This document shows positions 35,802 through 51,874 of a stretch of DNA of 51,874 nucleotides, piece by piece (the stretch's first letter is position 1; the number at the start of each line of letters is the position of its first letter). The notes under the pieces are model-generated. The model was not told the DNA's origin, did not search any database, and saw only the letters and a list, made by a program, of their open reading frames with translations. The position numbers were made by a program, and so were the translations under genes. Source of the stretch: a phage. The stretch lies in sequence record PZ386979.1; one strand, given 5' to 3'.

Positions 35802-35993
35802 TTATTCGATACGCTTTACAGTAACCAACAAAACGCCGTCCTCATCACACAAATTATGCTCTGATATGTTAAACGCTCGCATGTCAGAATGAATGAGCGT
35901 TAACATTGCGTGCATGAAGTCGCCATGTGAGATTTGAGAAGTAGCGCAAAACTTAAGAATTTCATCTATCAGTTTACTTTCCATGATTTTCAT
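35802..35993 (-). CDS. hypothetical protein
   Basis: Track ORF 35802..36044 overlaps HNH 3' end; shortened to internal Met; start uncertain. Confidence 0.3.
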   Translation of the reverse strand: MKIMESKLIDEILKFCATSQISHGDFMHAMLTLIHSDMRAFNISEHNLCDEDGVLLVTVKRIE

Positions 35994-36447
35994 GATAACC
36001 AAGTTTAGCCTCTGCTTGTTCTCTTGCCATAATTGCATCATCAATGCTTGAAAATAATCCTAAATGAATACTCTTACCTTTATCATATATGGTTGCATGC
36101 CATTTTTTTTCTTTCTTCCTCCAGCACACTCCAACCCTACCAGATTTATTTCTTTTTAGTAGAGATACGTTTTTGCTGTTCTCTAATCTTGATGCAAGCC
36201 TTAAATTTTCAATCCTGTTATCCAACCTATTGTGCCATATATGATCTATCTCCATTCCTTCTGGTATTTTTCCATTGTGCATTTCCCATATTATCCTATG
36301 CGCCAAAAGCAATACACCATTATACCTTATTCTTACATAGCCATTTTTATCTACACATCCAGCAACGCTTCCTGGCTTTGCTTTTCCCCTTCTGTTTCTC
36401 CATCTCAATATTCCATTGTCATATATAAATATTTTATTCCAATCCAT
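35974..36447 (-). CDS. HNH homing endonuclease (second copy)
   Basis: 157 aa; paralog of 1570..2076 (LAHRIIWEMHNGKIPEGMEIDHI ... LGYHENHGK); gene body visibly more AT-rich than flanks; overlaps both neighbours. Confidence 0.8.
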   Translation of the reverse strand: MDWNKIFIYDNGILRWRNRRGKAKPGSVAGCVDKNGYVRIRYNGVLLLAHRIIWEMHNGKIPEGMEIDHIWHNRLDNRIENLRLASRLENSKNVSLLKRNKSGRVGVCWRKKEKKWHATIYDKGKSIHLGLFSSIDDAIMAREQAEAKLGYHENHGK

Positions 36448-38483: not shown

Positions 38484-38701
38484 TTGATCCGCTCTATGCT
38501 AACTAAGATTTTTTCTGGTTCCTTTGCGCTATGGCAATGCGCGGTTACGGAATCAACAAAATCAAAATAAAGTGATTTGTGGTAAGAAAGACCAATCATC
38601 CATCCAACCATCGTTTTCTTTATTGGCCTGACTATATCGCCAGGCTTGAAGGTTTTTGTTGCTGAATAAGTCACCTTATAGCGATATTCAGTCTTGATCA
38701 C
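38480..38701 (-). CDS. hypothetical protein
   Basis: 73 aa; GTG start per ORF track; stop TAG lies inside a conserved element copy. Confidence 0.4.
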   Translation of the reverse strand: MIKTEYRYKVTYSATKTFKPGDIVRPIKKTMVGWMIGLSYHKSLYFDFVDSVTAHCHSAKEPEKILVSIERIK

Positions 38702-39084
38702 TTATACATAGCCTCAAACAAATGACAGCCACCAGCGGAAAATCCTACTTCTTCGCGGTATAGCGTCCAGCGGTCGCCAGCTTCATCAAAAACATAACCA
38801 GCAACAGCGCCAAGCGCGCGGCCTTGCTCAATCTGGTAACGCTTTCCTTCTTTGAAATGCTTTTTACACGGGATTTTGTGATCTACAAAGGTGCATTTAA
38901 TTGTTTTTGTCTTGATATGACGATAGTCAGACTCAACAGCGTTTTGCCACTTGCTACCCTTTGTAATGCTCTTTACCTGGAATTGTTCCAACTCGATCAC
39001 ATCATCGCTACCAGAAATTTTTTCGTATACGGTTTTATAGCGCCCGTCCATCAAAACGTTGGTTTTATTGCAGATAACTTTCAT
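38698..39084 (-). CDS. hypothetical protein
   Basis: 128 aa; AAAGGAG RBS; downstream of conserved element and -10 (39116..39160). Confidence 0.5.
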   Translation of the reverse strand: MKVICNKTNVLMDGRYKTVYEKISGSDDVIELEQFQVKSITKGSKWQNAVESDYRHIKTKTIKCTFVDHKIPCKKHFKEGKRYQIEQGRALGAVAGYVFDEAGDRWTLYREEVGFSAGGCHLFEAMYK

Positions 39085-40658: not shown

Positions 40659-40940
40659 CTAATTAATACCCACCACGTTAAAATTTACAGCTTTTGTTGC
40701 GCTAAACACATACGCTTCAACAGCGCCGCCAAATACACGAATTTTACCCTGGCCGTACTGCGCATTCATATTTCGCCAAACCGTTCTATTAGAGCAGAAT
40801 GCGCTACCAGTCTTAATAAGCGTATCCATCTCTTTTCTTAGATCGCGATAGTCCAGCCAGAATCTAAAGGCACGCTGTTTAATTCTCGCCGCCTTGATTT
40901 TTTCTCTTGCGCTATTGAAATCATTCTTTTCGTATGCCAT
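40659..40940 (-). CDS. hypothetical protein
   Basis: 93 aa; basic; in leftward early operon. Confidence 0.45.
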   Translation of the reverse strand: MAYEKNDFNSAREKIKAARIKQRAFRFWLDYRDLRKEMDTLIKTGSAFCSNRTVWRNMNAQYGQGKIRVFGGAVEAYVFSATKAVNFNVVGIN

Positions 40941-41137
40941 TAAATGATCTCCATGTATGTTTCAAAGCCATTTAACTTGAACAGGCCGTTTTCACATTTG
41001 CGCACGTTCCAAGTTAGCCCTGAGTGGTACGCCTCCATATCATCAAGGTCAATGGTGATTTCAGCACCTTTCTTAAACAAACCTTTTTCGTGAGACTTGT
41101 CGCGCTTAACAACTTTAACATCAACCTGATTTTCCAT
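40940..41137 (-). CDS. hypothetical protein
   Basis: 65 aa; GAGGA RBS; downstream of conserved element and -10 (41169..41212). Confidence 0.45.
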   Translation of the reverse strand: MENQVDVKVVKRDKSHEKGLFKKGAEITIDLDDMEAYHSGLTWNVRKCENGLFKLNGFETYMEII

Positions 41138-41212: not shown

Positions 41213-41479
41213 TTAGTCCATGAATTCGATTTCGCGCTCGCCAGTTAACGGATCTACAAGCCAGAATCCGAGCGGCTCACCGTAAACACCGCCATAGAAT
41301 CCAAGCGCCGACAGATCTTCACCTTTAACAAATACCAGATCACCGCTACGGCTTACGTGAGACACGTTAACGATAACCGGAAATGTGCGGTTTTTAAATG
41401 CAGGCCGCAGGGCGTAACACCCGTTATTTAGCAAACGTGCTTTGCGCTTAACTGGAATAGGTGCATTGATTCGCGCCAT
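41213..41479 (-). CDS. hypothetical protein
   Basis: 88 aa; stop TAA abuts conserved element. Confidence 0.45.
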   Translation of the reverse strand: MARINAPIPVKRKARLLNNGCYALRPAFKNRTFPVIVNVSHVSRSGDLVFVKGEDLSALGFYGGVYGEPLGFWLVDPLTGEREIEFMD

Positions 41480-42085: not shown

Positions 42086-42381
42086 TTGCTGACTGGTCAT
42101 TATTCCTTCTATTCCATTAATCAGGAATAACAGGAATAATTCATTCGCGATCACCTGGATTGTGAGACTTTGAGTTTGATCAATTTTAATCAGTTGATTA
42201 ACTTTTTGTGTGGAGGGGATGGAGAAACGCGGCCCTCTTGCATCCTTTCCGGCAATCCTGGCGCGCGCATCTGTTATTTCTGTTCCCCATGTTATCTCAA
42301 ATAAGCCTCCGCACTTTTAGATAACAGAATCGGCGTTCATCAACAAAAAGAACAAAATAAAATTTATATATATACCAATAA

Positions 42382-42396
42382 AATCAATAAGTTAGT
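42382..42396 (+). repeat. AATCAATAAGTTAGT 15-mer (copy 2)
   Basis: Identical to 21041..21055. Confidence 0.6.
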
Positions 42397-42626
42397 TATA
42401 TATGTATTTATATTTGTTATTTACTGTTGAGCTTGTTCCATGGGTATATGGTGGGTGTTGATGATTCCTTCATTTAACATTTGTACTTTTTATGCGGTTA
42501 TATATATAGATTTTGCGGCATTATCGAGACAACCAGTGAACGAGATTGAACGAGCTTTAAAATCAATCACTTGCGCGCAATTTTGTTATCGCGTCAAAAA
42601 AAGATGTTATTAGAACGAAAAATCAG

Positions 42627-42655
42627 TTGACTACCTGGCTGTGAGTATTGATAAT
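42627..42655 (+). promoter_or_regulatory. sigma70-like early promoter (TTGACT-17-GATAAT) for rightward early operon
   Basis: -35 TTGACT 42627..42632, -10 GATAAT 42650..42655; upstream TTAGAACGAAAAA block shared with promoter at 21298. Confidence 0.6.
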
Positions 42656-42687
42656 GCACGCAGACAAAACGAAAAGGGAGACAGCAC

Positions 42688-42987
42688 ATGACAAAAATGC
42701 TTGCAATAAACCGAAAACTTGAAGTGAAAGAGATGTCACAAGATGATATTGATGATTTGGCGCGCGGCATGACAACAGGTTACATGCGGAGAATTGTCAA
42801 TCACTTGATTAACTCTGAACGAAATAAGGCCGTATACATCAGCATAAATCACGCTGGAGGGAATGCTGCATCAATGCGACAGATGATTAACAACGTGGCA
42901 AAAGAGTTAAATGTTGATGTTAAGACGTTTGTTGTTGATGGATTCCTGGGCCTGGTAATACTTGAAGTTAACGAAGCGTTTGCATAA
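42688..42987 (+). CDS. hypothetical protein (first rightward early gene)
   Basis: 99 aa; AAGGGAG RBS; 30 nt after sigma70-like promoter TTGACT-17-GATAAT. Confidence 0.5.
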   Translation: MTKMLAINRKLEVKEMSQDDIDDLARGMTTGYMRRIVNHLINSERNKAVYISINHAGGNAASMRQMINNVAKELNVDVKTFVVDGFLGLVILEVNEAFA

Positions 42988-42998
42988 GGAGTAAGAGA

Positions 42999-43460
42999 AT
43001 GGAGCAAGAATTTATTAACCGCGCGGCATTTTGCGACACGTTGCGAGATATTGGAAGGGCTATCGGTAGCGGTGAGCGAGAAACCGTATTTATGCCTGAA
43101 ATCTACCTGAGAAGTCGAGTTGAGGGGGGCGAAGCAATTACGGCATCGTACATGCGCCAGGTTGTCAACCGCGTACCTGAAGTAAAGCAAAAAGGCGTGA
43201 TCAGCATTAAGCGAAAGGTGACTGATGAGGGTGATGGCTTTGTGTTTACGCTCACTGAAGCCAAAAGCAAGCCTCGCGTGCTGACTGGAGACGATATAGC
43301 GAAACTTGAAATCAAGTGGCGAGCAAAGTTTATTGCTCAACTTCTGAAAACTCAGCCGAGAATCAGCGACCTGGAAGGCGAGCGCCTGGAGGGTGCGGCA
43401 ATCGCACTTGAGCGAATGAATGAAATGCTTAGCGAGATGGTAAAGATGGGGGATGAATAA
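42999..43460 (+). CDS. hypothetical protein
   Basis: 153 aa; AAGGAG RBS. Confidence 0.5.
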   Translation: MEQEFINRAAFCDTLRDIGRAIGSGERETVFMPEIYLRSRVEGGEAITASYMRQVVNRVPEVKQKGVISIKRKVTDEGDGFVFTLTEAKSKPRVLTGDDIAKLEIKWRAKFIAQLLKTQPRISDLEGERLEGAAIALERMNEMLSEMVKMGDE

Positions 43461-43726
43461 TGAATAAGGCATTAATTGGAGTTTTGATTGCAATCGCTAC
43501 CCTGACCGGATGCGAAAAGGCATCTGAATCAACAGTTGTCGTAGGAGTGGAGTCAGATTTTAAAGTCGGTCGCCTGTTTACTGTTGATGGATGCACTGCG
43601 TACCGATTCTATGATAACGGTCACGCGATCTATTACACCAACTGCAAGGGCACGACTAGCTGGGAAGTGTCGAAAAGCAACGGCAAGGTAACGACAACAG
43701 AACATATGACAGTGGAGACAAAATAG
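43460..43726 (+). CDS. early lipoprotein (putative)
   Basis: 88 aa; signal peptide with lipobox LTGC; stop TAG inside conserved element. Confidence 0.5.
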   Translation: MNKALIGVLIAIATLTGCEKASESTVVVGVESDFKVGRLFTVDGCTAYRFYDNGHAIYYTNCKGTTSWEVSKSNGKVTTTEHMTVETK

Positions 43727-43766
43727 CACTTTTTGTTAAAACTCAAAAACGATAACCAGGCATAAT
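43723..43766 (+). promoter_or_regulatory. conserved element plus -10
   Basis: ATAGCACTTTTTGTTAAAAC containing lipoprotein stop TAG; 18-19 nt spacer; CATAAT. Confidence 0.55.
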
Positions 43767-43821
43767 AAATCACATAGGGCGGCACGGCGTCGCCCAGTTA
43801 AACCAATCAGGAGAAAGCACC

Positions 43822-44715
43822 ATGTTAAAACTTGCTGACATTAAATTCCCGATCACCTTCGAATCTCGTGGTGTTGGTCATTACGTTTTTACAGATGAGA
43901 AAACATGCCATAACGTTTGGTTGCACAGCGATAAGTTAAGCCCATCAACAATGGAGATTCAGCACTTTATTGATGCGCATAATCAGCACTACAACTCAAT
44001 CCGGGACTACGGCTACGCAATGCCAGGCTACACATGCTTGCACTACAAGCCATATAAGGGCCAGGTGTTACCAGTGCGCTCACCGGAACGCGCAGAGATT
44101 CCAATGGTCCATATGAAAACATGCGACTACAAAAAGCTGTGGTGCTTAAGTGTGGACAATATCAAGTATCCGATCACGTTCCACACGACTGGCAAGTTAA
44201 CGATTCGCTACACATCGCGCGACAATGGCGTTTATAGCGATGGTACGAAATCAGAGTTGAAAGTTGATTTCTTTGTCAATGGTCACAACAAATTCAATCC
44301 GCACAACGAAGAGGATAAAGTGTATTACGTGGAAGACATTACAAAACACTTGTTTGGAGAAACTCCATTCGGCGGCGGGAAGACGGCAATTCAGAAAATC
44401 ATTGGCGAGGAGATCCATAAAGCGGCTGTCGAAATGAAAGCGCCTGGAGGCTGGCGTATTGACAAGAGCGCCTTTGCCTATCAAGAAATCGTAACGCAGG
44501 GCGCGATTGAAGATATGCCAGTTACAGCCACGCTAAAAGGAGTCCGGCTTGATGACGGCAGTTGGTATGAATTAACAGCTACACCAAAGACGATCGAAAT
44601 TCATGATGATGTTGTTATCCTTCTGCTTCACTACGGCGGCACTAAAAACCGGACTGTTGCAGGTGAGATCCGCATCAAGCGCGGAGCGATGGTTAAGTGG
44701 AAGGTGAAGATTTGA
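43822..44715 (+). CDS. hypothetical protein with internal duplication
   Basis: 297 aa; two related segments (LADIKFPITFESRG ... / VDNIKYPITFHTTG ...); CAGGAG RBS. Confidence 0.5.
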   Translation: MLKLADIKFPITFESRGVGHYVFTDEKTCHNVWLHSDKLSPSTMEIQHFIDAHNQHYNSIRDYGYAMPGYTCLHYKPYKGQVLPVRSPERAEIPMVHMKTCDYKKLWCLSVDNIKYPITFHTTGKLTIRYTSRDNGVYSDGTKSELKVDFFVNGHNKFNPHNEEDKVYYVEDITKHLFGETPFGGGKTAIQKIIGEEIHKAAVEMKAPGGWRIDKSAFAYQEIVTQGAIEDMPVTATLKGVRLDDGSWYELTATPKTIEIHDDVVILLLHYGGTKNRTVAGEIRIKRGAMVKWKVKI

Positions 44716-44791
44716 GTTTGCTCACTGCGGCGCACGTCGCCGCATGGATAGGATTGTTTGCCTACATGTTTAGCTTTTATTGAGGTGAGAG

Positions 44792-44944
44792 ATGGCTACA
44801 TGGATTTTGCTGATTCTTATGATTGATGGCGGCGTTGACCATATCGAAATGAATAGCCAGCAATCTTGCATTGAGGCACGAGAGCAGATCAAGAACAACA
44901 ACAGGTTTTATGCGTACACTCACACGCTATGTATTAAGAAATAG
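44792..44944 (+). CDS. small membrane peptide (putative)
   Basis: 50 aa MATWILLILMIDGG...; GAGGTGAGAG RBS; stop TAG is part of a conserved element copy. Confidence 0.35.
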   Translation: MATWILLILMIDGGVDHIEMNSQQSCIEAREQIKNNNRFYAYTHTLCIKK

Positions 44945-44983
44945 CACTTTTTGTTAAAACTCAAATGTGGGGCCAGGTATAAT
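44941..44983 (+). promoter_or_regulatory. conserved element plus -10
   Basis: Element contains TAG of 44792..44944; 17-nt spacer; TATAAT inside GGCC...GGCC inverted repeat. Confidence 0.55.
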
Positions 44984-45013
44984 GGCCTCACTTTCAACGA
45001 AGGAGATAAAACG

Positions 45014-45232
45014 ATGTACATTAAAAAGAAGATGAAATGCGTTTCCGTTAACTATGCTTGCTCTGGCATGTTCAAGCCTGGCGAAATCTATACGGCGCAA
45101 AAACTGAAATCATCAACCGGATCCTTTTACGTGAGCAATAGTAAGGGGCATCGCATGTTCCTGAACGGCGGCGAAGGCACTAAGGTTATGGCACACGCTA
45201 TGGTAATGGCTGAATTTGAGGAGGTGAAATAA
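45014..45232 (+). CDS. hypothetical protein (tandem paralog 1)
   Basis: 72 aa; start ATG 45014 behind AAGGAG RBS; paralog of 45232..45477 (F.LNG..GT...A...V.AEFE). Confidence 0.45.
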   Translation: MYIKKKMKCVSVNYACSGMFKPGEIYTAQKLKSSTGSFYVSNSKGHRMFLNGGEGTKVMAHAMVMAEFEEVK

Positions 45233-45477
45233 TGATCATTGAAAACAACTTTCTTTGCGTTAAGAGCAATCGACCATTCTTCACGCCTGGCAAGGTGTAC
45301 CAGGGCAAGAAGGACACAAGAGATGGTCACTCTTATCATGTTCACTGCAACAACGGATACAAGTTTTACCTTAACGGTAATAATGGAACTGAGATTGTTG
45401 CGTTTGAAAACGTAATTGCCGAGTTCGAGCAGATTACAGACGCGGAATTTGAGGAAGTGAAAGATGAAAACAAATAA
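45232..45477 (+). CDS. hypothetical protein (tandem paralog 2)
   Basis: 81 aa; shares PG..Y...K...G.S.Y/H... FYLNGNNGTEIVAFENVIAEFE with upstream gene. Confidence 0.45.
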   Translation: MIIENNFLCVKSNRPFFTPGKVYQGKKDTRDGHSYHVHCNNGYKFYLNGNNGTEIVAFENVIAEFEQITDAEFEEVKDENK

Positions 45478-45685
45478 GCGCGTCAAGCACAGGTTTACTG
45501 ATAACCACGGCGACGCGATTGATGTATACAAGTTCGGCGATCGCGTGTTTATTGATGGCACGTTTGAAGGTGGTCGTAGGCCGGATTTTAGGTCGATACT
45601 TACCGTTGACCAAGTGCGCAAGCTGGCAGATAAGTTAAATGATCTGGCAGATGAAATAGAATACAAGCAAATCCATTTTAATTGA
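45464..45685 (+). CDS. hypothetical protein
   Basis: 73 aa; overlaps upstream gene end. Confidence 0.4.
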   Translation: MKTNKRVKHRFTDNHGDAIDVYKFGDRVFIDGTFEGGRRPDFRSILTVDQVRKLADKLNDLADEIEYKQIHFN

Positions 45686-45696
45686 TAGGTTTGATA

Positions 45697-46410
45697 ATGA
45701 AAAAATACACTTTCGAACTGTGGGGCAAGAAGTACGAATTAATCACCAGCAAGCCGATTGTTATCGTTGACCTGGACGGCACGCTATCGGACGGATCGCA
45801 TCGTTTGCATTTGCTGCCAACTGAAAACTTGCACCTTACGGAATCGTGGCGCGAGTTTAACAGGGCCGCCTCCGGAGATTCACCGATTAAAAGCACTATC
45901 GCGGTTATTAACGGTTTATGGGTGTCGGGATTTGCCATCGTCATCCTGACCGGACGCAGCGACGAGGTTCGCTATGAAACCTGCAAATGGTTGAATGAGA
46001 ACGGCGTGAAGTTTGACGAAATCATCATGCGCCGCCAGGAGGACAACCGAAAGGATACTGTTATTAAAGAAGAAGCCTTGCGCGCTATTGGCCTGGACAA
46101 CATTGTTTGCGCCTTTGACGATTCGCCGAGCGTGGTTAAGCACTTCCGCAGCTTGGGGATCACAACCTATCAGGTCACGGAATACGACAAGCCACACGCT
46201 CACATACAATCTCACGGCGTGGAATCAATAAAGATCACGAAGCGCGCCCGATTCGTCGGCAGCAAAGACAGCCTGGTCAATGCCAGCTTTATCAAAGGCA
46301 AGGTTTATGATGTTCATAGCCATGATAAAAACCGATTCTTTTTGTGGGATGAAAAAGGTTTTGGCTGGTGCTTTGAACACGACGACGGCGATTTTGTTAA
46401 CGCGGAGTAA
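45697..46410 (+). CDS. HAD-superfamily phosphatase (polynucleotide 3'-phosphatase/nucleotidase-like)
   Basis: 237 aa; HAD motif I DLDGTLSDG near N-terminus. Confidence 0.55.
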   Translation: MKKYTFELWGKKYELITSKPIVIVDLDGTLSDGSHRLHLLPTENLHLTESWREFNRAASGDSPIKSTIAVINGLWVSGFAIVILTGRSDEVRYETCKWLNENGVKFDEIIMRRQEDNRKDTVIKEEALRAIGLDNIVCAFDDSPSVVKHFRSLGITTYQVTEYDKPHAHIQSHGVESIKITKRARFVGSKDSLVNASFIKGKVYDVHSHDKNRFFLWDEKGFGWCFEHDDGDFVNAE

Positions 46411-46416
46411 TTATAA

Positions 46417-46608
46417 ATGGCTGACTTTATGCATCAAATGATTGTTGTATTTAAGGGCAGTGAAGATGAAGAGGTTCGCGAATGCTTCACCATTGAGAAA
46501 TCATACAGCGCATCTTTAACCAGTTTTGGCAACATATCTATGATTGATGATAATGGCGATCCGTGGATTTTTGAAGATGATACGGATTGCTTTGAGATTA
46601 AAGAATAG
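46417..46608 (+). CDS. hypothetical small acidic protein
   Basis: 63 aa; highly acidic; stop TAG inside conserved element. Confidence 0.45.
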   Translation: MADFMHQMIVVFKGSEDEEVRECFTIEKSYSASLTSFGNISMIDDNGDPWIFEDDTDCFEIKE

Positions 46609-46648
46609 CACTTTTTGCAAAAACAGATTATCGGGCTTGCGGTATAGT
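46605..46648 (+). promoter_or_regulatory. conserved element (ATAGCACTTTTTGCAAAAAC) plus -10 TATAGT
   Basis: Contains stop TAG; spacer/-10 within inverted repeat GGGCTT...AAGCCC. Confidence 0.5.
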
Positions 46649-46679
46649 AAGCCCATCAACAACAAACGAGGATTAAATC

Positions 46680-46943
46680 ATGGCTAACAAGATCGAGTTT
46701 TTTAAAGCGGTAGACATTATCGACGGCGCGCCTAGCTTCTTTGCTATCCATTCTATTGACGGCAAGGATATTGGGTACAACGTTATCCGTCGAGATGGAA
46801 TATCAAAACTTAGTGACCTGGTAGGCCATATTGTGTCAATCGGGAAATGCGCATGGCCCGATTCGCCACGAGAGCCGCGCCGCCGCGACATGGTAGAGCC
46901 TGTTCTGCTTTACACTCTGGTAGTAGAAGGAGAAAATAAATGA
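46680..46943 (+). CDS. hypothetical protein
   Basis: 87 aa; GAGGA RBS; downstream of conserved element and -10. Confidence 0.45.
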   Translation: MANKIEFFKAVDIIDGAPSFFAIHSIDGKDIGYNVIRRDGISKLSDLVGHIVSIGKCAWPDSPREPRRRDMVEPVLLYTLVVEGENK

Positions 46944-47140
46944 TTTGGTTACTTGCTTTTTTGGTTGTTTTTCTTTACATTTCAGGATTATTCACGTTCC
47001 GCGCGTTGGTGAAAACATGCGATTGCACGGATAAAGATCAGCCTCTTGTTCTGATGTTCTGGTTTGTGTGGTTTTGGGTTGTGTGGTTTTGGGTTGCGCT
47101 TTATCAGATTGTACGGGATAAAAGCGGATTCAAGTGGTGA
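46940..47140 (+). CDS. small membrane protein (Trp/Phe-rich TMD)
   Basis: 66 aa; two hydrophobic helices; contains perfect 15-bp tandem duplication encoding VWFWVVWFWV. Confidence 0.45.
   Translation: MIWLLAFLVVFLYISGLFTFRALVKTCDCTDKDQPLVLMFWFVWFWVVWFWVALYQIVRDKSGFKW
47066..47095 (+). repeat. perfect 15-bp tandem duplication (GTGTGGTTTTGGGTT x2) inside membrane protein gene
   Basis: Two adjacent identical 15-mers, in frame, encoding VWFWV VWFWV. Confidence 0.8.
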
Positions 47141-47334
47141 TTCTTACTATAGCGCATTCACGCAGTGCGCTATGTTGAGATAACAACATGAGATCATGAA
47201 GATGCGAAACTTCGAAAAAATCGTATCCAAAAAGAAGCGATACAGCTACCACGAGCACCAAGAGATGAATCAACGCTATCGCAATAAGCGCCAGCGCAAA
47301 GGTAAACATTCCGGTAAACATGGAGAAAATCAAT

Positions 47335-47925
47335 ATGAAACGAGACATTATCATCCTTAACGGACCGCCAGGAGTTGGCAAAGATACGCTTGCCGCATAC
47401 TTAACGGGCCATCGTTACGCAGCGGTTAAAGCGTCGTTTAAACAGCCGATGTTTGATATTGCATTCTCCATGCTTGGCGTTTACAGATATGACGAGTTCA
47501 TTGATCTGTATAACGACCGCGAGCAGAAAGAAAAGCCTCAAGCAATCTTGCAAGGCAAGTCTCCGCGACAATTCATGATTTGGATTAGTGAAGAAGTCAT
47601 GAAGCCAGCTTTTGGCGAGCAATATTTTGGGAATCGCATGGTTGAGCAGGTACACGAGATGTACAGAGATTTAGCTGTTGTAATTAGTGATGGAGGATTC
47701 CCTGAAGAAATCAAGCCGCTCGTTAAGGCAGGCCATGAAGTTCACATTTGCCGACTGCATCGCGAAGGATTCACGTTTGATGGCGATTCGCGAAACTATA
47801 TTGACCTGAGCGGATACCATCACCGAGTCAAGCATTACGACTTCACAATGATTGATGGCGAGCCAGAAAAGACTGTTGACGAGATCATCAAAACGGTGCA
47901 GTGGAAACACATTAAGATCAAATAG
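47335..47925 (+). CDS. P-loop nucleotide kinase (dNMP kinase / polynucleotide kinase-like)
   Basis: Start ATG 47335 behind GGAGAAAA RBS; Walker A GPPGVGKDT resembles the GxxxSGKDT loop of phage dNMP kinases. Confidence 0.6.
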   Translation: MKRDIIILNGPPGVGKDTLAAYLTGHRYAAVKASFKQPMFDIAFSMLGVYRYDEFIDLYNDREQKEKPQAILQGKSPRQFMIWISEEVMKPAFGEQYFGNRMVEQVHEMYRDLAVVISDGGFPEEIKPLVKAGHEVHICRLHREGFTFDGDSRNYIDLSGYHHRVKHYDFTMIDGEPEKTVDEIIKTVQWKHIKIK

Positions 47926-47965
47926 CACGAATTGCTAAAAGCGTGGCGCAATGCCTCGCTATAAT
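47922..47965 (+). promoter_or_regulatory. conserved element variant (ATAGCACGAATTGCTAAAAG) plus -10 TATAAT
   Basis: Contains kinase stop TAG; 18-nt spacer; TATAAT. Confidence 0.55.
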
Positions 47966-47995
47966 GCAAACACCAATCAACGAGAGGAAATCATC

Positions 47996-48394
47996 ATGGT
48001 AGAGTTAAACGACATTCGCGTTGGAACAAAATTTCGCGTAACCTGGGCAGATAAATATTGCGGAGTTAGCAAGGGCCAGGTTGTTACTGTGGATAGCATT
48101 TATCGCGGATGCAGCAAAGACTTTCGCCGACCACGCATCAAGAATGGCTATATCATTACTCGACGACTTGGCTTTGATCATTATTGCGTAGTGGCAAAAG
48201 GCGTTTTGATTGAGCTTAAGCGAATCAGCGATCATCGCGGCTGCCATGTTAAGACAATGAAAACACCATTTCAGCGAGCGCGATACGATGCGCGCAGGAT
48301 GCGCCGTCTTGCACGAAACGCGATCAAGTTCAAAAAGCATGGTGGTAACTTTTACCTAATGTACAAAGGGATTGCGCGAAATGCTGGAAAATAA
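47996..48394 (+). CDS. hypothetical basic protein
   Basis: Start ATG 47996 behind GAGAGGAAA RBS (longer track ORF begins upstream of predicted -10 at 47960..47965); Arg/Lys-rich. Confidence 0.45.
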   Translation: MVELNDIRVGTKFRVTWADKYCGVSKGQVVTVDSIYRGCSKDFRRPRIKNGYIITRRLGFDHYCVVAKGVLIELKRISDHRGCHVKTMKTPFQRARYDARRMRRLARNAIKFKKHGGNFYLMYKGIARNAGK

Positions 48395-48512
48395 CAACAA
48401 CGCAACCAATCCAAAGCCGCCATTTGATTTTCATGAAATCATGATTGTGTTATTCTTGATTCTCTTAGTTGTTTATTCAGTGAGGGCCGCAATATGGTTT
48501 TTAATGCACTAA
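48381..48512 (+). CDS. small membrane peptide (putative)
   Basis: 43 aa with TMD IMIVLFLILLVVYSV; overlaps neighbouring genes; not in ORF track. Confidence 0.25.
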   Translation: MLENNNNATNPKPPFDFHEIMIVLFLILLVVYSVRAAIWFLMH

Positions 48513-48757
48513 AACGAATCTTTAAACCTGAATACCGGATCGTTGCTTGCACAGAATGCAAGATTTATTATCTGCAACGCCGCCGCGTTATTAGTGGGGA
48601 TTGGGAATATCTGACTGATGATGCTTTCGGCTTTTGGGCTATGGAGTTCAATAGCTACAGCGAAGCGCGTGAGTACGCTAAAAAGTTGCACAAGTTCAGA
48701 CCTTACAAGCTGCGTTTGCTGGTTGTCAAAAAATGCGATGTGTTGGATCACGAATGA
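48494..48757 (+). CDS. hypothetical protein
   Basis: 87 aa; CxxC pair (CTEC). Confidence 0.4.
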   Translation: MVFNALKRIFKPEYRIVACTECKIYYLQRRRVISGDWEYLTDDAFGFWAMEFNSYSEAREYAKKLHKFRPYKLRLLVVKKCDVLDHE

Positions 48758-49263
48758 AAAGAGTAATTATCATTTTTATTGCCATTATCGCTGGTTGCTA
48801 CCTGGCTTATAATTATAGCGGCATTGTTGAGTCAATCGGCAGGTTGATTATCTTCATGGCTGGCGGGTATGCTGGCTATTATGATGGATTCGAAAACGGA
48901 AAGCGTTACATGCTTACCGGAAAAAGAAGTAATGTTAACCGCGCCGCTTCGGTGGCGCTAAAAGGAGGAAACAAAATGGCTAAAAGCAATCGTAAAATGT
49001 TGATTAACGCATTCGAAAAGGCGGCGCTTGAGCGTGGTTGGAATGACTCATTTCACACAGCAAACTGTATCCGCCGTTACGGATTCAAGAATTGCCGATC
49101 CTGGGCGCGTCAAATGGCTTCATGGTATGATCTTGATGCGCATTACCTTGATATGGATTGCGCCCTGGTTGAAATGATTGAGCAGGCAGCATTAGAGGAT
49201 CGACCATTAACGCAATCTGATTTTGACGATTTTGTGCGCGATGAAATCTATTACATGAGCTAA
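48754..49263 (+). CDS. membrane/lipoprotein-like protein (putative)
   Basis: Start ATG 48754 (ATGA overlap); N-terminal hydrophobic segment with lipobox-like IIAGC; stop abuts conserved element. Confidence 0.45.
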   Translation: MKRVIIIFIAIIAGCYLAYNYSGIVESIGRLIIFMAGGYAGYYDGFENGKRYMLTGKRSNVNRAASVALKGGNKMAKSNRKMLINAFEKAALERGWNDSFHTANCIRRYGFKNCRSWARQMASWYDLDAHYLDMDCALVEMIEQAALEDRPLTQSDFDDFVRDEIYYMS

Positions 49264-49306
49264 TAGCACTTTTTGTTAAAACTTCCGCGAGGGCATTTGT
49301 TAAAGT
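49263..49306 (+). promoter_or_regulatory. conserved element with weak -10-like TAAAGT
   Basis: Element abuts TAA stop; 18 nt later TAAAGT; partial second core TTTGTTAAAG in spacer. Confidence 0.4.
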
Positions 49307-49338
49307 GTCCTCATTGAAGCGAAACAGAGGAAATAAAA

Positions 49339-49551
49339 ATGAAAATTCGAATCACCAGGGTTGACATTGACCGTAACGACGGAAGCATTACCCTTGAGCA
49401 ATGCGGATTCAAAGTTGGTGACATTGTAGAGGTTGACGGATTCTTTCGCGATGGTTCTTACTGCGTGTTAGCAATCCGAAACACAGAAGAAATTCGAATC
49501 GGTGATAACATCGGCGTAAACCATGACGAATGCGAGGTAGTAGAAGAATGA
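49339..49551 (+). CDS. hypothetical small acidic protein
   Basis: 70 aa; GAGGAAA RBS; acidic. Confidence 0.45.
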   Translation: MKIRITRVDIDRNDGSITLEQCGFKVGDIVEVDGFFRDGSYCVLAIRNTEEIRIGDNIGVNHDECEVVEE

Positions 49552-49781
49552 TCACGATTAACCTGTCAGAGCAGCAAGCAGCACAGATTATGCGTCATAT
49601 TTCCGTAATGGGTATTGATGGTGATTTCTCTGAAGTGGTGAAGCAGATTTATCGCCAACTTGCGCCAGCATCAACAATGGCGTCTGAGGTTGCAGTATGG
49701 CGTCACGAGGCAGGATACACGCAAAGGATGATTGAAGACTGGAAGCGCAAAAACGAGACTGCGGAGGATGCAGGATTATGA
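49548..49781 (+). CDS. hypothetical protein
   Basis: Start ATG 49548 overlapping upstream stop (ATGA). Confidence 0.4.
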   Translation: MITINLSEQQAAQIMRHISVMGIDGDFSEVVKQIYRQLAPASTMASEVAVWRHEAGYTQRMIEDWKRKNETAEDAGL

Positions 49782-50092
49782 TTTACATTCACTACTACCA
49801 GATCGGGACAAACGAAAACAAGCATGATCGCAGAGCAATTTGTGACACGCTCGAAGATGCGAAAGCACAGCAACGCGTTTTGGGTGGTGTAATTCAGGCT
49901 TTTGAGCCAGTGGAAGACATAGAGCACAGAGAGCATTTGAAAGAGATTGTTGTTGATGAAATTTCATCACTAATCGACGACATGACAAATCACGGTCCTG
50001 GTTCTCCGTGGGAAGAAGCTGGATCGACGGAGTGGGATTGCGCTAAAGTTGCAACTCTTAACAACTTTCGTGAGTTGCTCGACGATTTTTAA
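49778..50092 (+). CDS. hypothetical acidic protein
   Basis: 104 aa; ATGA overlap with upstream gene; acidic. Confidence 0.45.
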   Translation: MIYIHYYQIGTNENKHDRRAICDTLEDAKAQQRVLGGVIQAFEPVEDIEHREHLKEIVVDEISSLIDDMTNHGPGSPWEEAGSTEWDCAKVATLNNFRELLDDF

Positions 50093-50162
50093 TTAAAATT
50101 GAATGCCTTATACAGCGAACAGGACGCATTTTGACGAGGCATTTTTTAGGTAAGGTGATTCA

Positions 50163-50291
50163 ATGGATAACTACATAAAACCGTCGCAGTGGTGCGCACA
50201 GATGCAAGAGGAAGCATTAGAACGAGGCGACACTGAAACGGCAATGCACTATTTCGAAATGTACAACTTGTGGAAGGGTAGAGGTCTGTAA
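50163..50291 (+). CDS. small ORF (42 aa)
   Basis: MDNYIKPSQWCAQMQEEALERGDTETAMHYFEMYNLWKGRGL; AAGGTGA RBS; TAATG overlap with next gene. Confidence 0.3.
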   Translation: MDNYIKPSQWCAQMQEEALERGDTETAMHYFEMYNLWKGRGL

Positions 50292-50521
50292 TGTTTGGAA
50301 TGAACGAGGCACAATTCAACGCTGCAAAACGCCAGGCTAAGAAGTGCGGAGAGGCAATGAAGGCGGATGTTGAAAAGCGCGGAAAGTATGTTGATGAAGT
50401 TATGAAGGGCATTATTGCCGAACATTATCAGCCAGTTTCGCCAATGCTGACAATTACCCAATTCATCTGGTTGTGTGGTTATCTTCGTGGGCGATGGGGA
50501 AACGCATTTGACCGCGAATGA
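50291..50521 (+). CDS. hypothetical protein
   Basis: 76 aa. Confidence 0.4.
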   Translation: MFGMNEAQFNAAKRQAKKCGEAMKADVEKRGKYVDEVMKGIIAEHYQPVSPMLTITQFIWLCGYLRGRWGNAFDRE

Positions 50522-50667
50522 TTGACAACGATTTACTGATTGGTTAACATCTTCGGTGTTTACATAAGAGCGGCGTTAGTGCCGAACGGGTGGCGCGGTT
50601 GCCACGCAACAACGGCGATATGCAGGTTTTTACCGTAATACGTATCGCCTTTTTTATAGGTGAATAT

Positions 50668-50901
50668 ATGGAAAAGTACAAATTAACTTTCATGTTTAAT
50701 AGTATGGTGATGAATCCCTTAAATGGTTACGCTTGCAATAGCTTTTCTGTTACCGTGAATGAGGATGAAATTGATGATGATGGCAAATTCATTCGAATTG
50801 GTGAATACTTGTACCCAGTTCACAATATCAATTGCATCAAACGCGAGATCGTAAAAGATGAAGTACAAAGTAAAGCTGACGATCAGGCGAATGGGGCGTA
50901 A
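50668..50901 (+). CDS. hypothetical protein
   Basis: Start ATG 50668 behind AGGTGA RBS, after hairpin plus T-run at 50614..50655. Confidence 0.4.
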   Translation: MEKYKLTFMFNSMVMNPLNGYACNSFSVTVNEDEIDDDGKFIRIGEYLYPVHNINCIKREIVKDEVQSKADDQANGA

Positions 50902-51046
50902 TTGCCAGTCATGTAGGCAGGATTTTGAATGCGAGATTTCAGCGCAAAATCCTGTTGACGCGATTCAATGTGCTAAAGTTATATCAGGTGCAGATCCAGA
51001 GACGCATCAATTTTCAATAAATTTTGTAAGGGAAGTATCATGTTAA
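50858..51046 (+). CDS. hypothetical protein
   Basis: 62 aa; overlaps upstream ORF by 44 nt, weak RBS; several Cys. Confidence 0.3.
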   Translation: MKYKVKLTIRRMGRNCQSCRQDFECEISAQNPVDAIQCAKVISGADPETHQFSINFVREVSC

Positions 51047-51273
51047 ACTTAATTTCTGCTTTTGTTATTGGTTTTGTTTTTGCTGTGATTATTCTGCTTA
51101 TCGCGTCGGAAAAGATTTGCAAATTTCTTGCTAAGAACGGGAAGTTTGCAAGCGCGACATGGAATAACAAGATGCAGCGATGGGATGTGCGCGGTCACTA
51201 TCTGACGATTGGCAGCAAAATCCATCAGCATCTGAAGAATCAAGAAGATGAAAAAGTAAAATACAAGTATTGA
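51040..51273 (+). CDS. small membrane protein
   Basis: 77 aa; N-terminal TMD (LISAFVIGFVFAVIILLIA); AAGGGAAG RBS; terminator follows. Confidence 0.45.
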   Translation: MLNLISAFVIGFVFAVIILLIASEKICKFLAKNGKFASATWNNKMQRWDVRGHYLTIGSKIHQHLKNQEDEKVKYKY

Positions 51274-51280
51274 CCAACTA

Positions 51281-51304
51281 CCCGCCAAATGGCGGGTTTT
51301 TTAT
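51281..51304 (+). terminator. rho-independent terminator before terS
   Basis: CCCGCC-aaat-GGCGGG followed by TTTTTT. Confidence 0.7.
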
Positions 51305-51353: not shown

Positions 51354-51874
51354 ATGGCTAAAAACGTTGAGCCAGCAGTAAAGGCTTGCAATTTTAAAAA
51401 ACTATATAATAAGCAATATGGCGATATAGCAAAAATGACAAAGGCGCACAAGTACACGCCGGAACAGGTATTTGATCTGGCTGTGCGTTACTTTACGTGG
51501 GCAGAGGAAAATCATATACAGGCTGCGGAAACGGCATCCTTTCAGGGTGACGTATACGAAAGCAAGATTCACAAGCCGCGCGTTTTCACCTTAAATGGAT
51601 TCCGCTTATTCGCTGGCCTTTCTGCTTCCGTGCTTGAGAAATGGCGACGCGAGCCAGGATTCAGCGATGTTATGGACTTTATCGACGGAGTTGTTTACGA
51701 GCAAAAATTCCAGCTTGCTGCAAACAATATTGTTAACGCCGGATTCATTGGTAAAGAGATCGGCATTGAAAAGCCAGCTACCGTTACCATTGAGAATAAC
51801 ACAAGCGCAAGCGTTGACGCTGTAACGGCGGAGGAAGTCAAAGAGGCGGTAATTGACATTCTGGAGAAGATATA
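51354..51874 (+). CDS. terS: terminase small subunit (putative; 3' end runs off window, completed by nt 1)
   Basis: Open frame from ATG 51354 (AAGGAGGG RBS) to window end with no stop; last two nt TA plus nt 1 (A) give TAA overlapping terL ATG; position upstream of terL. Confidence 0.45.
   Translation, partial: MAKNVEPAVKACNFKKLYNKQYGDIAKMTKAHKYTPEQVFDLAVRYFTWAEENHIQAAETASFQGDVYESKIHKPRVFTLNGFRLFAGLSASVLEKWRREPGFSDVMDFIDGVVYEQKFQLAANNIVNAGFIGKEIGIEKPATVTIENNTSASVDAVTAEEVKEAVIDILEKI

What the first reader, a model, noticed from the sequence alone, without database searches (positions are those of the whole stretch)
42688..51273. Rightward early block of about 25 mostly small, often acidic ORFs: candidate anti-defense pool
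The genes are short, tightly packed with many ATGA/TAATG overlaps, punctuated by element copies, and several are strongly acidic (46417..46608, 49339..49551, 49778..50092), as expected for DNA-mimic or host-takeover proteins. None could be assigned by eye.
Basis: inference. Interest (0 to 1): 0.45.

Follow-up and report, generated by a model that had tools for sequence, protein, structure and literature searches.

The report
Small-gene arm of a T1-like phage
This is the well-known block of about 26 small, mostly uncharacterised genes that every T1-like coliphage carries just upstream of its DNA-packaging genes. It is a reasonable place to look for anti-defence genes, but nothing found here shows that any of them is one.

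Summary
Window 42688-51273 (+) carries 26 tightly packed genes under purifying selection, 13 of 25 junctions overlap, and the block holds five copies of a repeated element. The window is a complete Hanrivervirus genome (Drexlerviridae, closest to phage Fulano1). The block matches T1 ORFs 55-77 and ends at a strong terminator just before terS.

The element is the published 21-nt ATAGCAC repeat of TLS/T1.

Only two genes get an enzymatic assignment:
- g09 is a PNKP-type HAD 3'-phosphatase with no kinase domain.
- g14 is a dNMP kinase.

Five genes encode lipoproteins or small membrane proteins. The rest have relatives only in T1-like phages.

"Often acidic" is overstated. Three of 26 are strongly acidic, and the block's median pI is 6.7.
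- g10, the most acidic, is a detached copy of the C-terminal domain of the long phosphatase form.
- g21 gives a confident model with no relative among solved structures. A relative carrying it at 97% identity is still restricted by type II and III systems.
- g19 was not examined structurally.

The block is more mosaic than the structural genes, so it is a plausible accessory region. "Early" timing and anti-defence function remain untested.

Three homology breakpoints fall exactly on the repeat.

The parts
42627..42655 (+). Near-consensus sigma-70 promoter (TTGACT-17-GATAAT) ahead of the first gene. It lies at the right edge of a roughly 600-nt AT-rich divergent intergenic region.
42688..42987 (+). 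g01, 99 aa, unknown function. Variable: present in 2 of 9 Hanrivervirus relatives.
42999..43460 (+). g02, 153 aa, DUF7174. Occurs as allelic variants of 63-98% identity.
   Evidence: (E 1.2e-42)
43460..43726 (+). g03, 88 aa, predicted lipoprotein (lipobox LTGC). Weak DUF4884 match below Pfam's threshold.
43722..43766 (+). ATAGCAC repeat with a -10-like CATAAT. The TAG inside the repeat is the stop codon of g03. Homology to 7 of 9 relatives resumes here.
43822..44715 (+). g04, 297 aa, core gene. It has two copies of an N-module (MLKLxDIKFPITF...HNxxNPxN) plus a C-terminal SH3/KOW-like barrel. The family has only 41 representative clusters. The C-terminal part matches T1 in the region of ORF70 (CPTT1_008).
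44792..44944 (+). g05, 50 aa. Absent from all 9 Hanrivervirus relatives examined. 48% identical to T1 CPTT1_009.
44940..44983 (+). ATAGCAC repeat with TATAAT. Homology to all 9 relatives resumes at this position, and the stop codon of g05 lies inside the repeat.
45014..45232 (+). g06, 72 aa, core gene, paralogue of g07.
   Evidence: E 2e-13
45232..45477 (+). g07, 81 aa, paralogue of g06. Variable among relatives.
45464..45685 (+). g08, 73 aa, unknown function. Variable among relatives.
45697..46410 (+). g09, 237 aa. HAD 3'-phosphatase of the PNKP type (DLDGT motif) with no kinase P-loop, plus a C-terminal domain of about 55 aa that is homologous to g10.
46417..46608 (+). g10, 63 aa, pI 4.05. 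Free-standing copy of the g09 C-terminal domain. 100% identical to SECphi27 gp34. Absent from the 9 Hanrivervirus relatives examined but found in 64 phage records.
46604..46648 (+). ATAGCAC repeat with TATAGT. Homology to 8 of 9 relatives resumes here, and the stop codon of g10 lies inside the repeat.
46680..46943 (+). g11, 87 aa, unknown function.
46940..47140 (+). g12, 66 aa, predicted membrane protein with two transmembrane segments.
47148..47174 (+). Strong hairpin with no U tract, between g12 and g13.
   Evidence: -18.4 kcal/mol, z -4.6
47196..47360 (+). g13, 54 aa, very basic (pI 10.4).
47320..47925 (+). g14, 201 aa, dNMP kinase with P-loop GPPGVGKDT. Core gene, 96-99% identical in relatives and 46% identical to the T1 kinase.
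   Evidence: (phrog_139, E 5.8e-51)
47921..47966 (+). ATAGCAC repeat of the GAA subtype, with TATAAT.
47996..48394 (+). g15, 132 aa, basic (the 147-aa ORF that contains it has pI 10.6). Core gene with no family match.
48372..48512 (+). g16, 46 aa, one transmembrane segment, TTG start.
48494..48757 (+). g17, 87 aa, has a CxxC motif. Core gene, 95-100% identical in relatives.
48733..49263 (+). g18, 176 aa. N-terminal lipobox/transmembrane part (IAGC) joined to a 95-aa soluble part. In most relatives examined these are two separate genes.
49262..49310 (+). ATAGCAC repeat.
49339..49551 (+). g19, 70 aa, pI 4.44. Allelic slot: 100%, about 42% identical, or absent in relatives.
49548..49781 (+). g20, 77 aa, DUF7180. 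Allelic slot, 36-100% identical in relatives. 44% identical to T1.
49778..50092 (+). g21, 104 aa, pI 4.52, core gene. Confident model: beta-beta-alpha-beta followed by two long helices. No known structural relative.
50101..50150 (+). Terminator-like hairpin followed by U6, after g21.
50163..50291 (+). g22, 42 aa, core gene.
50291..50521 (+). g23, 76 aa, phrog_303. Core gene, 97-100% identical in relatives and 34% identical to T1.
50522..50550 (+). Sigma-70-like promoter (TTGACA-17-TAACAT).
50668..50901 (+). g24, 77 aa, unknown function.
50858..51046 (+). g25, 62 aa, five cysteines including a CxxC. Two allele groups. Highest pN/pS among the ORFs with many substitutions (0.52).
51040..51273 (+). 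g26, 77 aa, DUF7299, N-terminal transmembrane segment. Two allele groups (about 99% and about 40% identical).
51280..51297 (+). Strong intrinsic terminator that closes the block. terS starts at 51354.

Best explanation
The block is the conserved small-gene arm of a T1-like (Drexlerviridae, Hanrivervirus) phage and is the counterpart of T1 ORFs 55-77.

Transcription. It appears to be read rightward by host RNA polymerase. Transcription would start from a strong sigma-70 promoter at 42627, from five cassettes each headed by the family's 21-nt ATAGCAC repeat with a -10 box, and from a sigma-70-like promoter at 50522. It would stop at an intrinsic terminator just before terS.

Products. They fall into four classes:
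1. Two nucleotide-salvage enzymes. These are a kinase-less PNKP-type HAD 3'-phosphatase (with a small acidic accessory domain that also exists as the separate gene g10) and a dNMP kinase. They probably channel breakdown products of host DNA into phage DNA synthesis.
2. Five envelope proteins (two lipoproteins, three small membrane proteins), probably acting in exclusion or envelope remodelling.
3. About ten conserved small soluble proteins, including g04 and g21, of unknown and apparently new folds. They are probably host-takeover factors.
4. About nine swappable slots (g01, g05, g07, g08, g10, g19, g20, g25, g26). These are the only reasonable candidates for counter-defence or trigger-evasion genes.

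Shown versus inferred. Shown: gene content, homologies, mosaicism, promoter-like and terminator-like signals. Inferred: expression timing, the salvage role, the envelope role, and any anti-defence role.
For: - Identity and synteny with Fulano1, eight other Hanriverviruses, SECphi27 and T1. T1 has the same layout: 23 small genes including the phosphatase and the dNMP kinase, then a terminator, then terS.
- terS and terL lie immediately downstream.
- The repeat is the one published for TLS/T1 (PMC11447400) and occurs about 22 times in gene orientation.
- Promoter and terminator signals.
- Enzyme assignments.
- g10 and the g09 C-terminal domain are homologous: hhalign probability 87%, P 4e-6. They are also in-frame positional equivalents in SECphi27.
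- Lipoboxes and transmembrane segments.
- Purifying selection on the ORFs.
- Pattern of core versus variable genes.
- The TLS paper states that T1 and TLS degrade host DNA and reuse the nucleotides, and that the responsible early genes are unidentified.
Against: - No expression data exist for this or any T1-like phage that I could find, so 'early' is unproven.
- The ATAGCAC cassettes have a poor -35 (TTAAAA) and an 18-19-nt spacer. They may need an activator, so they may not be early.
- The salvage role of a 3'-phosphatase is conjecture.
- Nineteen of the 26 products have no functional evidence at all.
- The envelope assignments rest on simple hydropathy and lipobox rules.
Confidence: 0.6

Rival explanations
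1. One reading: the block is mainly a pool of anti-defence genes, with the acidic ORFs (g10, g19, g21) acting as DNA mimics or inhibitors of restriction, CRISPR or abortive-infection systems.
For: - The genes are small, phage-restricted and partly hypervariable, in a hotspot between conserved modules. Regions like this are enriched for counter-defence genes (10.1101/2023.04.06.535777).
- Three of the four most acidic ORFs of the genome lie here.
- No housekeeping assignment was possible for 24 of 26 ORFs.
- Small ORFs of the neighbouring leftward block are known to interact with defence systems. One example is the Gp54 homologue, whose Bas11 version triggers CapRel.
Against: - No sequence or fold similarity to any solved or catalogued anti-defence protein.
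- g10 is a detached phosphatase domain.
- g21 is core rather than variable. JakobBernoulli, which carries it at 97% identity, is still strongly restricted by EcoRI and type III systems.
- These phages have 0-2 type I and type II sites, so site avoidance already accounts for escape.
- Seven of the 26 products are enzymes or envelope proteins.
Confidence: 0.2
2. The non-enzymatic genes mainly serve competition between phages and control of the infected cell envelope, for example superinfection exclusion, receptor masking or control of lysis timing. They do not counter intracellular immunity.
For: - Five of the 26 products are lipoproteins or small membrane proteins (g03, g12, g16, g18 N-terminal part, g26).
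- T1-like phages are known to use small lipoproteins (Cor/Llp) for exclusion (PMC13164509).
- g26 and g03 occur as divergent alleles, as expected for receptor-matched functions.
Against: - About 19 products are predicted to be soluble.
- The known Cor/Llp genes of this family sit next to the receptor-binding gene, not in this block.
- No similarity to Cor, Llp, Imm or Sp was detected.
Confidence: 0.12
3. Many of the variable ORFs are near-neutral passengers. They would be gene cassettes moved by recombination at the ATAGCAC repeats, with little effect on phage fitness.
For: - Homology breakpoints fall exactly on the repeats at 43721, 44939 and 46604.
- The upstream genes use the TAG inside the repeat as their stop codon.
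- g05 and g10 are present or absent without disturbing their neighbours.
Against: - All ORFs with data show purifying selection, with pN/pS of 0.05-0.67.
- Phage genomes of this size are under packaging constraint.
- g10 is 100% conserved between phages of different genera.
Confidence: 0.08

Closest known systems
Phage T1 ORFs 55-77 (CPTT1_001 to CPTT1_023) and the equivalent region of TLS
   Same: - Same position and orientation, immediately upstream of terS and terL.
- About 23-26 small genes that include a kinase-less PNKP-type phosphatase and a dNMP kinase.
- Closed by an intrinsic terminator and punctuated by the same 21-nt ATAGCAC repeat.
- g04, g05, g09, g14, g20, g23 and g25 have T1 homologues at 34-57% identity.
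   Different: - Most individual genes differ.
- In T1 the g04 family is represented by shorter ORFs; the match I tested covers the C-terminal part of g04 and lies in the region of CPTT1_008.
- T1 has an HNH endonuclease between the phosphatase and the kinase.
- This window has the long phosphatase form plus a separate g10.
Hyperplastic early regions of T4-type phages with PeSL (promoter-early stem-loop) cassettes. This comparison is from my own knowledge (Arbiol et al. 2010) and was not checked in the paper library.
   Same: Arrays of small ORFan genes, each preceded by a repeated promoter-containing motif. Gene content is shuffled between relatives, with junctions at the repeats.
   Different: - The repeat sequence is different and the phage family is unrelated.
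- Here only 3 of the 5 in-block repeats coincide with breakpoints.
- Promoter activity of the repeat has not been demonstrated.
DNA-mimic anti-restriction proteins (T7 Ocr, ArdA, T7 gp5.9)
   Same: Small size and strong negative charge in g10, g19 and g21.
   Different: - No sequence or structural similarity.
- g10 is a domain of a phosphatase.
- Charge density is well below that of Ocr (from my own knowledge).
- A relative carrying g21 remains restriction-sensitive, although only type II and III systems were informative.
T4 polynucleotide kinase-phosphatase (Pnkp, PseT), the tRNA-repair counter-defence against PrrC
   Same: g09 matches the HAD phosphatase domain of T4 Pnkp and of Pnkp1.
   Different: - No 5'-kinase domain or P-loop.
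- No RNA ligase partner is annotated in the T1 record.
- An extra C-terminal acidic domain is present.
- The 'polynucleotide kinase' label in the GenBank records is therefore misleading.

Membership tests
Drexlerviridae small-gene arm (T1 ORFs 55-77 type) | Lies directly upstream of terS and terL, in the same orientation, and is closed by an intrinsic terminator. | tested here: met
   Terminator at 51280-51297. terS from 51354 is 172/173 identical to the terS of phage herni. terL starts at window position 1.
Drexlerviridae small-gene arm (T1 ORFs 55-77 type) | Contains the PNKP-type phosphatase and the dNMP kinase among many small ORFs. | tested here: met
   g09 and g14. The same pair occurs in T1.
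Drexlerviridae small-gene arm (T1 ORFs 55-77 type) | Intergenic 21-nt repeat aaATAGCACnnnTTGnTAAAA in the direction of transcription. | tested here: met
   Five copies in the block and about 22 in the genome. The consensus is as published for TLS.
DNA-mimic anti-restriction proteins (Ocr/ArdA type) | Small and strongly acidic. | tested here: met
   g10 has net charge -12 over 63 aa, g21 has -13 over 104 aa and g19 has -8 over 70 aa.
DNA-mimic anti-restriction proteins (Ocr/ArdA type) | Sequence or fold similarity to a known mimic. | tested here: not met
DNA-mimic anti-restriction proteins (Ocr/ArdA type) | Protects the phage from type I restriction or BREX. | not testable with these tools
   The BASEL relatives have 0 EcoKI sites, so their EOP of about 1 says nothing. 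They are restricted by EcoRI and by type III systems.
T4-type Pnkp end-healing enzyme | N-terminal P-loop 5'-kinase domain. | tested here: not met
   g09 aligns only to residues about 200-300 of T4 Pnkp and to the isolated phosphatase domain 5uj0. No Walker A motif is present in the sequence.
T4-type Pnkp end-healing enzyme | HAD (DxDxT) 3'-phosphatase domain. | tested here: met
   PF25109 HAD_PNKP, E 6.8e-21. DLDGT motif present.
T4-type Pnkp end-healing enzyme | RNA ligase partner encoded in the same genome. | not tested
   None is annotated in T1. The window outside the block was not scanned for one.
dNMP kinase (T4 gp1 / T5 Dnk type) | P-loop kinase matching the phage dNMP kinase family. 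| tested here: met
   phrog_139, E 5.8e-51. GPPGVGKDT motif present. The T1 record cites HHpred 99% to the T4 enzyme.
Phage accessory region (anti-defence hotspot in the sense of Silas et al.) | High gene turnover between closely related genomes, flanked by conserved genes. | tested here: met
   Nine variable slots among ten core genes. Coverage and identity are lower than in the structural module.
Phage accessory region (anti-defence hotspot in the sense of Silas et al.) | Contains at least one recognised counter-defence gene. | tested here: not met
   No match in PHROGs, Pfam, PDB sequences (all 26 ORFs), NCBIfam or PADLOC (subsets of the ORFs). No dedicated anti-defence HMM library was available.
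PeSL-like mobile regulatory cassettes | Mosaic junctions coincide with the repeated promoter motif. | tested here: inconclusive
   Junctions sit exactly on 3 of the 5 in-block repeats (9/9, 8/9 and 7/9 relatives) and on none at the other two. The relatives are not independent of one another.

The most novel reading that the evidence does not exclude
The 21-nt ATAGCAC repeat may be more than a promoter or UP-type signal. It may be the junction at which T1-like phages exchange gene cassettes, as an analogue of the T4 PeSL system. Accessory genes (g05, g10 and the g03 alleles) are inserted immediately upstream of a repeat and borrow its TAG as their stop codon. On this reading the swappable slots would hold the family's counter-defence or trigger-evasion genes. 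The acidic g10 domain would be a detachable regulator or targeting subunit of the kinase-less phosphatase.
Probability: 0.3. Interest if true: 0.5.

Novelty: already known. Interest (0 to 1): 0.25.

Why it matters
T1-like phages are among the commonest coliphages and are used in therapy cocktails and in defence-system research (BASEL collection, SECphi27). About half of their genes have no known function. This block holds most of that unknown fraction.

A clear map helps focus experiments. The map here gives 10 core genes, 9 swappable slots, 2 enzymes and 5 envelope proteins. It indicates which ORFs are worth screening against defence systems: g01, g05, g07, g08, g19, g20, g25 and g26. It also indicates which are more likely general host-takeover or metabolic factors: g04, g09/g10, g14, g17, g21 and g23.

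The analysis also corrects the widespread 'polynucleotide kinase' annotation. The protein has only the phosphatase half.

As a discovery the finding is ordinary. The region is already described for T1 and TLS, and no anti-defence function was demonstrated here.

Tried and rejected
1. g10 or other block ORFs as homologues of Gp54 of Bas11, the CapRel trigger. Rejected: the PDB search of the block found nothing. The real homologue is at 40940-41137 (-), outside the block.
4. Weak Pfam hints, all far below threshold and treated as chance: g08 to the phiKZ Dip protein (E 0.04), g13 to T7 gp1.1 (E 0.028) and g19 to DUF5666/CsrA.
5. GenBank labels on homologues, namely 'tail fiber protein', 'HNH endonuclease', 'methyltransferase type 11' and 'fusion protein'. 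None is supported by any profile search here.
6. Using BASEL restriction data to test for an Ocr-like function. This was uninformative for type I systems because the relatives have no EcoKI sites.
7. Literature search for transcript timing in T1-like phages. Nothing relevant was found.
8. PADLOC and NCBIfam searches gave nothing beyond the HAD phosphatase and kinase matches.

Full report
**What the window is.** The 51,874-base window is a complete genome of a T1-like siphovirus (Drexlerviridae, Tempevirinae, Hanrivervirus).
- Megablast of the block and of the first 20 kb finds Escherichia phage vB_EcoD_Fulano1 as the closest record. The structural genes are 99.4% identical. The block is 96.7% identical over 90% of its length.
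- Position 1 is the ATG of the large terminase gene.
- The last 520 bases encode the small terminase, 172/173 identical to that of phage herni.

**Checking the observation.** Between 42688 and 51273 I define 26 + strand genes, g01 to g26, with Shine-Dalgarno-like sequences.
- Intergenic DNA sums to about 755 nt, so about 91% of the block is coding.
- 13 of 25 junctions overlap, including TAATG and ATGA types.
- Against nine Hanrivervirus relatives, every ORF with data has pN/pS between 0.05 and 0.67, so these are real genes.
- GC skew is positive through the block and negative in the adjacent leftward block.
- The block as a whole is not acidic. Median pI is 6.7 and about 43% of the ORFs are basic, although three of the four most acidic ORFs of the genome lie here.

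'Often acidic' is overstated.

**The 'element copies'.** The repeat AATAGCACTTTTTGTTAAAA, followed 18-19 nt later by a -10-like hexamer, occurs about 22 times in the genome and always points with the genes. Five copies are in the block. It is the 21-nt repeat aaATAGCACnnnTTGnTAAAA already described for TLS, with 18 intergenic copies there, and noted in T1, Rtp and Rogue1. Its function is still open: promoter, UP element or operator (PMC11447400).

The block's other transcription signals are:
- a near-consensus sigma-70 promoter at 42627;
- a sigma-70-like promoter at 50522;
- a terminator-like hairpin after g21;
- a strong terminator at 51280-51297.

The same repeat type also precedes genes in the structural and replication regions. 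It therefore says nothing about timing. I found no transcript-timing data for any T1-like phage. The TLS authors call these genes only 'presumptive early'.

**The block is a family-wide feature.** The curated T1 record shows the same layout: 23 small genes (CPTT1_001 to 023, ORFs 77-55 of the original paper), including a 'polynucleotide kinase' and a deoxynucleotide kinase, then a terminator, then terS and terL. Seven window genes have T1 homologues at 34-57% identity.

**What the genes are.** All 26 ORFs were searched against PHROGs and Pfam, subsets against NCBIfam and PADLOC, and a concatenate of all 26 against the sequences of all solved structures. Only two functional assignments resulted.
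- g09 is a HAD phosphatase of the PNKP type (PF25109, E 6.8e-21, DLDGT motif). It aligns only with the phosphatase half of T4 Pnkp and has no P-loop, so the usual 'polynucleotide kinase' label is misleading.
- g14 is a dNMP kinase (phrog_139, E 5.8e-51).
- g03 has a lipoprotein signal (LTGC). The N-terminal part of g18 has a lipobox/transmembrane signal (IAGC). g12, g16 and g26 are small membrane proteins.
- g02, g20 and g26 fall in Pfam families of unknown function (DUF7174, DUF7180, DUF7299).
- The other ORFs match only PHROG families of unknown function, or nothing.

**The acidic candidates.**

g21 (104 aa)
- Its family has 62 clusters, essentially all on contigs of about 50 kb from T1-like phages.
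- With that alignment AlphaFold gives a confident model, mean pLDDT 88.8. It shows a beta-beta-alpha-beta unit followed by two long helices.
- g21 is a core gene, 84-100% identical in all nine relatives.
- JakobBernoulli (Bas07) carries it at 97% identity. It is still restricted about 10^5-fold by EcoRI through a single site, and 10^2-10^3-fold by two type III systems.
- Type I data are uninformative because these phages have no EcoKI sites.

g10 (63 aa, the most acidic)
- It is absent from the nine Hanrivervirus relatives. It is 100% identical in SECphi27, atuna and tiwna, and occurs in 64 phage records.
- It is homologous to the C-terminal extension of about 55 aa on g09: blastp E 1e-3, hhalign probability 87%, P 4e-6, 50 ungapped columns.
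- In SECphi27 the short phosphatase gene ends in TAG and is followed, in the same reading frame, by the g10 gene. A translated alignment of the long g09 therefore runs straight through that stop.
- This gene-fusion relationship ties g10 to the phosphatase and argues against a free DNA mimic.

It occupies an allelic slot (100%, about 42% identical, or absent in relatives).

**The largest unknown gene, g04 (297 aa).**
- Its family has only 41 representative clusters among 1.84 billion proteins.
- Members are mostly 170-190 aa, with one N-module plus a C-terminal domain. g04 has the N-module twice.
- The model has three confident domains joined by disordered linkers.
- No function can be read from it.

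**Mosaic structure.** A translated comparison with nine Hanriverviruses separates two groups.
- Core genes: g04, g06, g09, g14, g15, g16, g17, g21, g22 and g23.
- Variable or allelic slots: g01, g05, g07, g08, g10, g19, g20, g25 and g26.

The block is clearly more variable than the structural module. At the DNA level, homology to the relatives resumes exactly at the first base of the repeat at three sites: 44939 (9 of 9 relatives), 46603-46606 (8 of 9) and 43721 (7 of 9). The other two in-block repeats show no junctions. The upstream genes g03, g05, g10 and g14 use the TAG inside 'ATAGCAC' as their stop codon. This resembles the promoter-stem-loop cassettes that shuffle early genes in T4-type phages (from my own knowledge). 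The relatives are not independent, so this is a lead and not a result.

**Most likely explanation.** The block is the T1-family small-gene arm. It is transcribed by host polymerase in about eight units. It encodes:
- nucleotide salvage (phosphatase with its acidic accessory domain, and dNMP kinase), which fits the known reuse of host DNA by T1 and TLS;
- several envelope proteins;
- a conserved set of small soluble proteins of new folds that probably act on host targets;
- a set of swappable slots.

An anti-defence role is plausible only for the swappable subset and is not supported by any positive evidence. I put the broad explanation at 0.6 and the reading 'mainly an anti-defence pool with acidic DNA mimics' at 0.2. 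The chance that at least one of the 26 is a counter-defence gene is perhaps one half. That figure rests on general knowledge of phage accessory regions, not on anything shown here.

**Verdict.** The finding is real, ordinary and already described for T1 and TLS.

Noticed in passing
window 40940-41137 (-): A 65-aa ORF homologous to Gp54 of phage Bas11 (PDB 9axb, phmmer E 4.4e-17). Gp54 is the small SH3-like protein that directly activates the CapRel(SJ46) toxin-antitoxin defence. The window copy keeps D6, G24 and W43. It has V7 and A25 where the activating protein has A7 and I25, so it is probably a non-triggering allele. It has its own ATAGCAC repeat at 41213 (-).
   Followed up: partly
window 38698-39084 (-): A 128-aa ORF next to the DNA methyltransferase gene, 75% identical to SECphi27 gp13 (also 128 aa). 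A 128-aa SECphi27 protein of unknown function was reported as the trigger of the type I Mokosh defence (10.1101/2022.08.27.505566). gp13 is the only 128-aa gene in the 22 kb of SECphi27 that I inspected, so the match is probable but not certain.
   Followed up: partly
window 43721, 44939 and 46604 (and the repeat copies genome-wide): Homology breakpoints with relatives fall on the first base of the ATAGCAC repeat at three sites. The TAG inside the repeat also serves as the stop codon of the upstream gene (g03, g05, g10, g14). This suggests the repeat is a junction for cassette exchange as well as a transcription signal.
   Followed up: partly
window 45697-46608 and L011 10464-11192: The phosphatase exists in a short form (179 aa) and a long form (237 aa). 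In SECphi27 the short form is followed in-frame, after a TAG, by the g10 gene. The window has the long fused form and also a separate g10 copy, which looks like gene fusion or fission caught in both states.
   Followed up: yes
window 48733-49263: g18 is one 176-aa ORF here. In most relatives examined it is two genes: a 59-aa lipobox/transmembrane protein and a 95-aa soluble protein. In Fulano1 it is two overlapping ORFs. This is either a genuine fusion or a frameshift difference.
   Followed up: no
window 42100-42687: An AT-rich, gene-free divergent region of about 600 nt lies between the leftward and rightward small-gene blocks. It contains TATATATA-type inverted repeats (42359-42374 and 42499-42514). 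It could be a control region or a replication origin.
   Followed up: no
window 47148-47174: A very stable hairpin (-18.4 kcal/mol, z -4.6) with no U tract lies between g12 and g13, inside a transcription unit. It may be an RNA processing or stability element.
   Followed up: no
window 35974-36447 (-): A 157-aa ORF with an HNH-type motif (EIDHIWHNRLDNRIENLRL) at the far end of the leftward block. It is probably one of the mobile homing endonucleases common in T1-like genomes.
   Followed up: no
L002, L004 and L011 annotations: Several GenBank product names on homologues of block genes are not supported by any profile search here. Examples are 'tail fiber protein' for g04, 'HNH endonuclease' for g06/g08/g15, 'methyltransferase type 11' for g19 and 'polynucleotide kinase' for the kinase-less g09.
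   Followed up: partly
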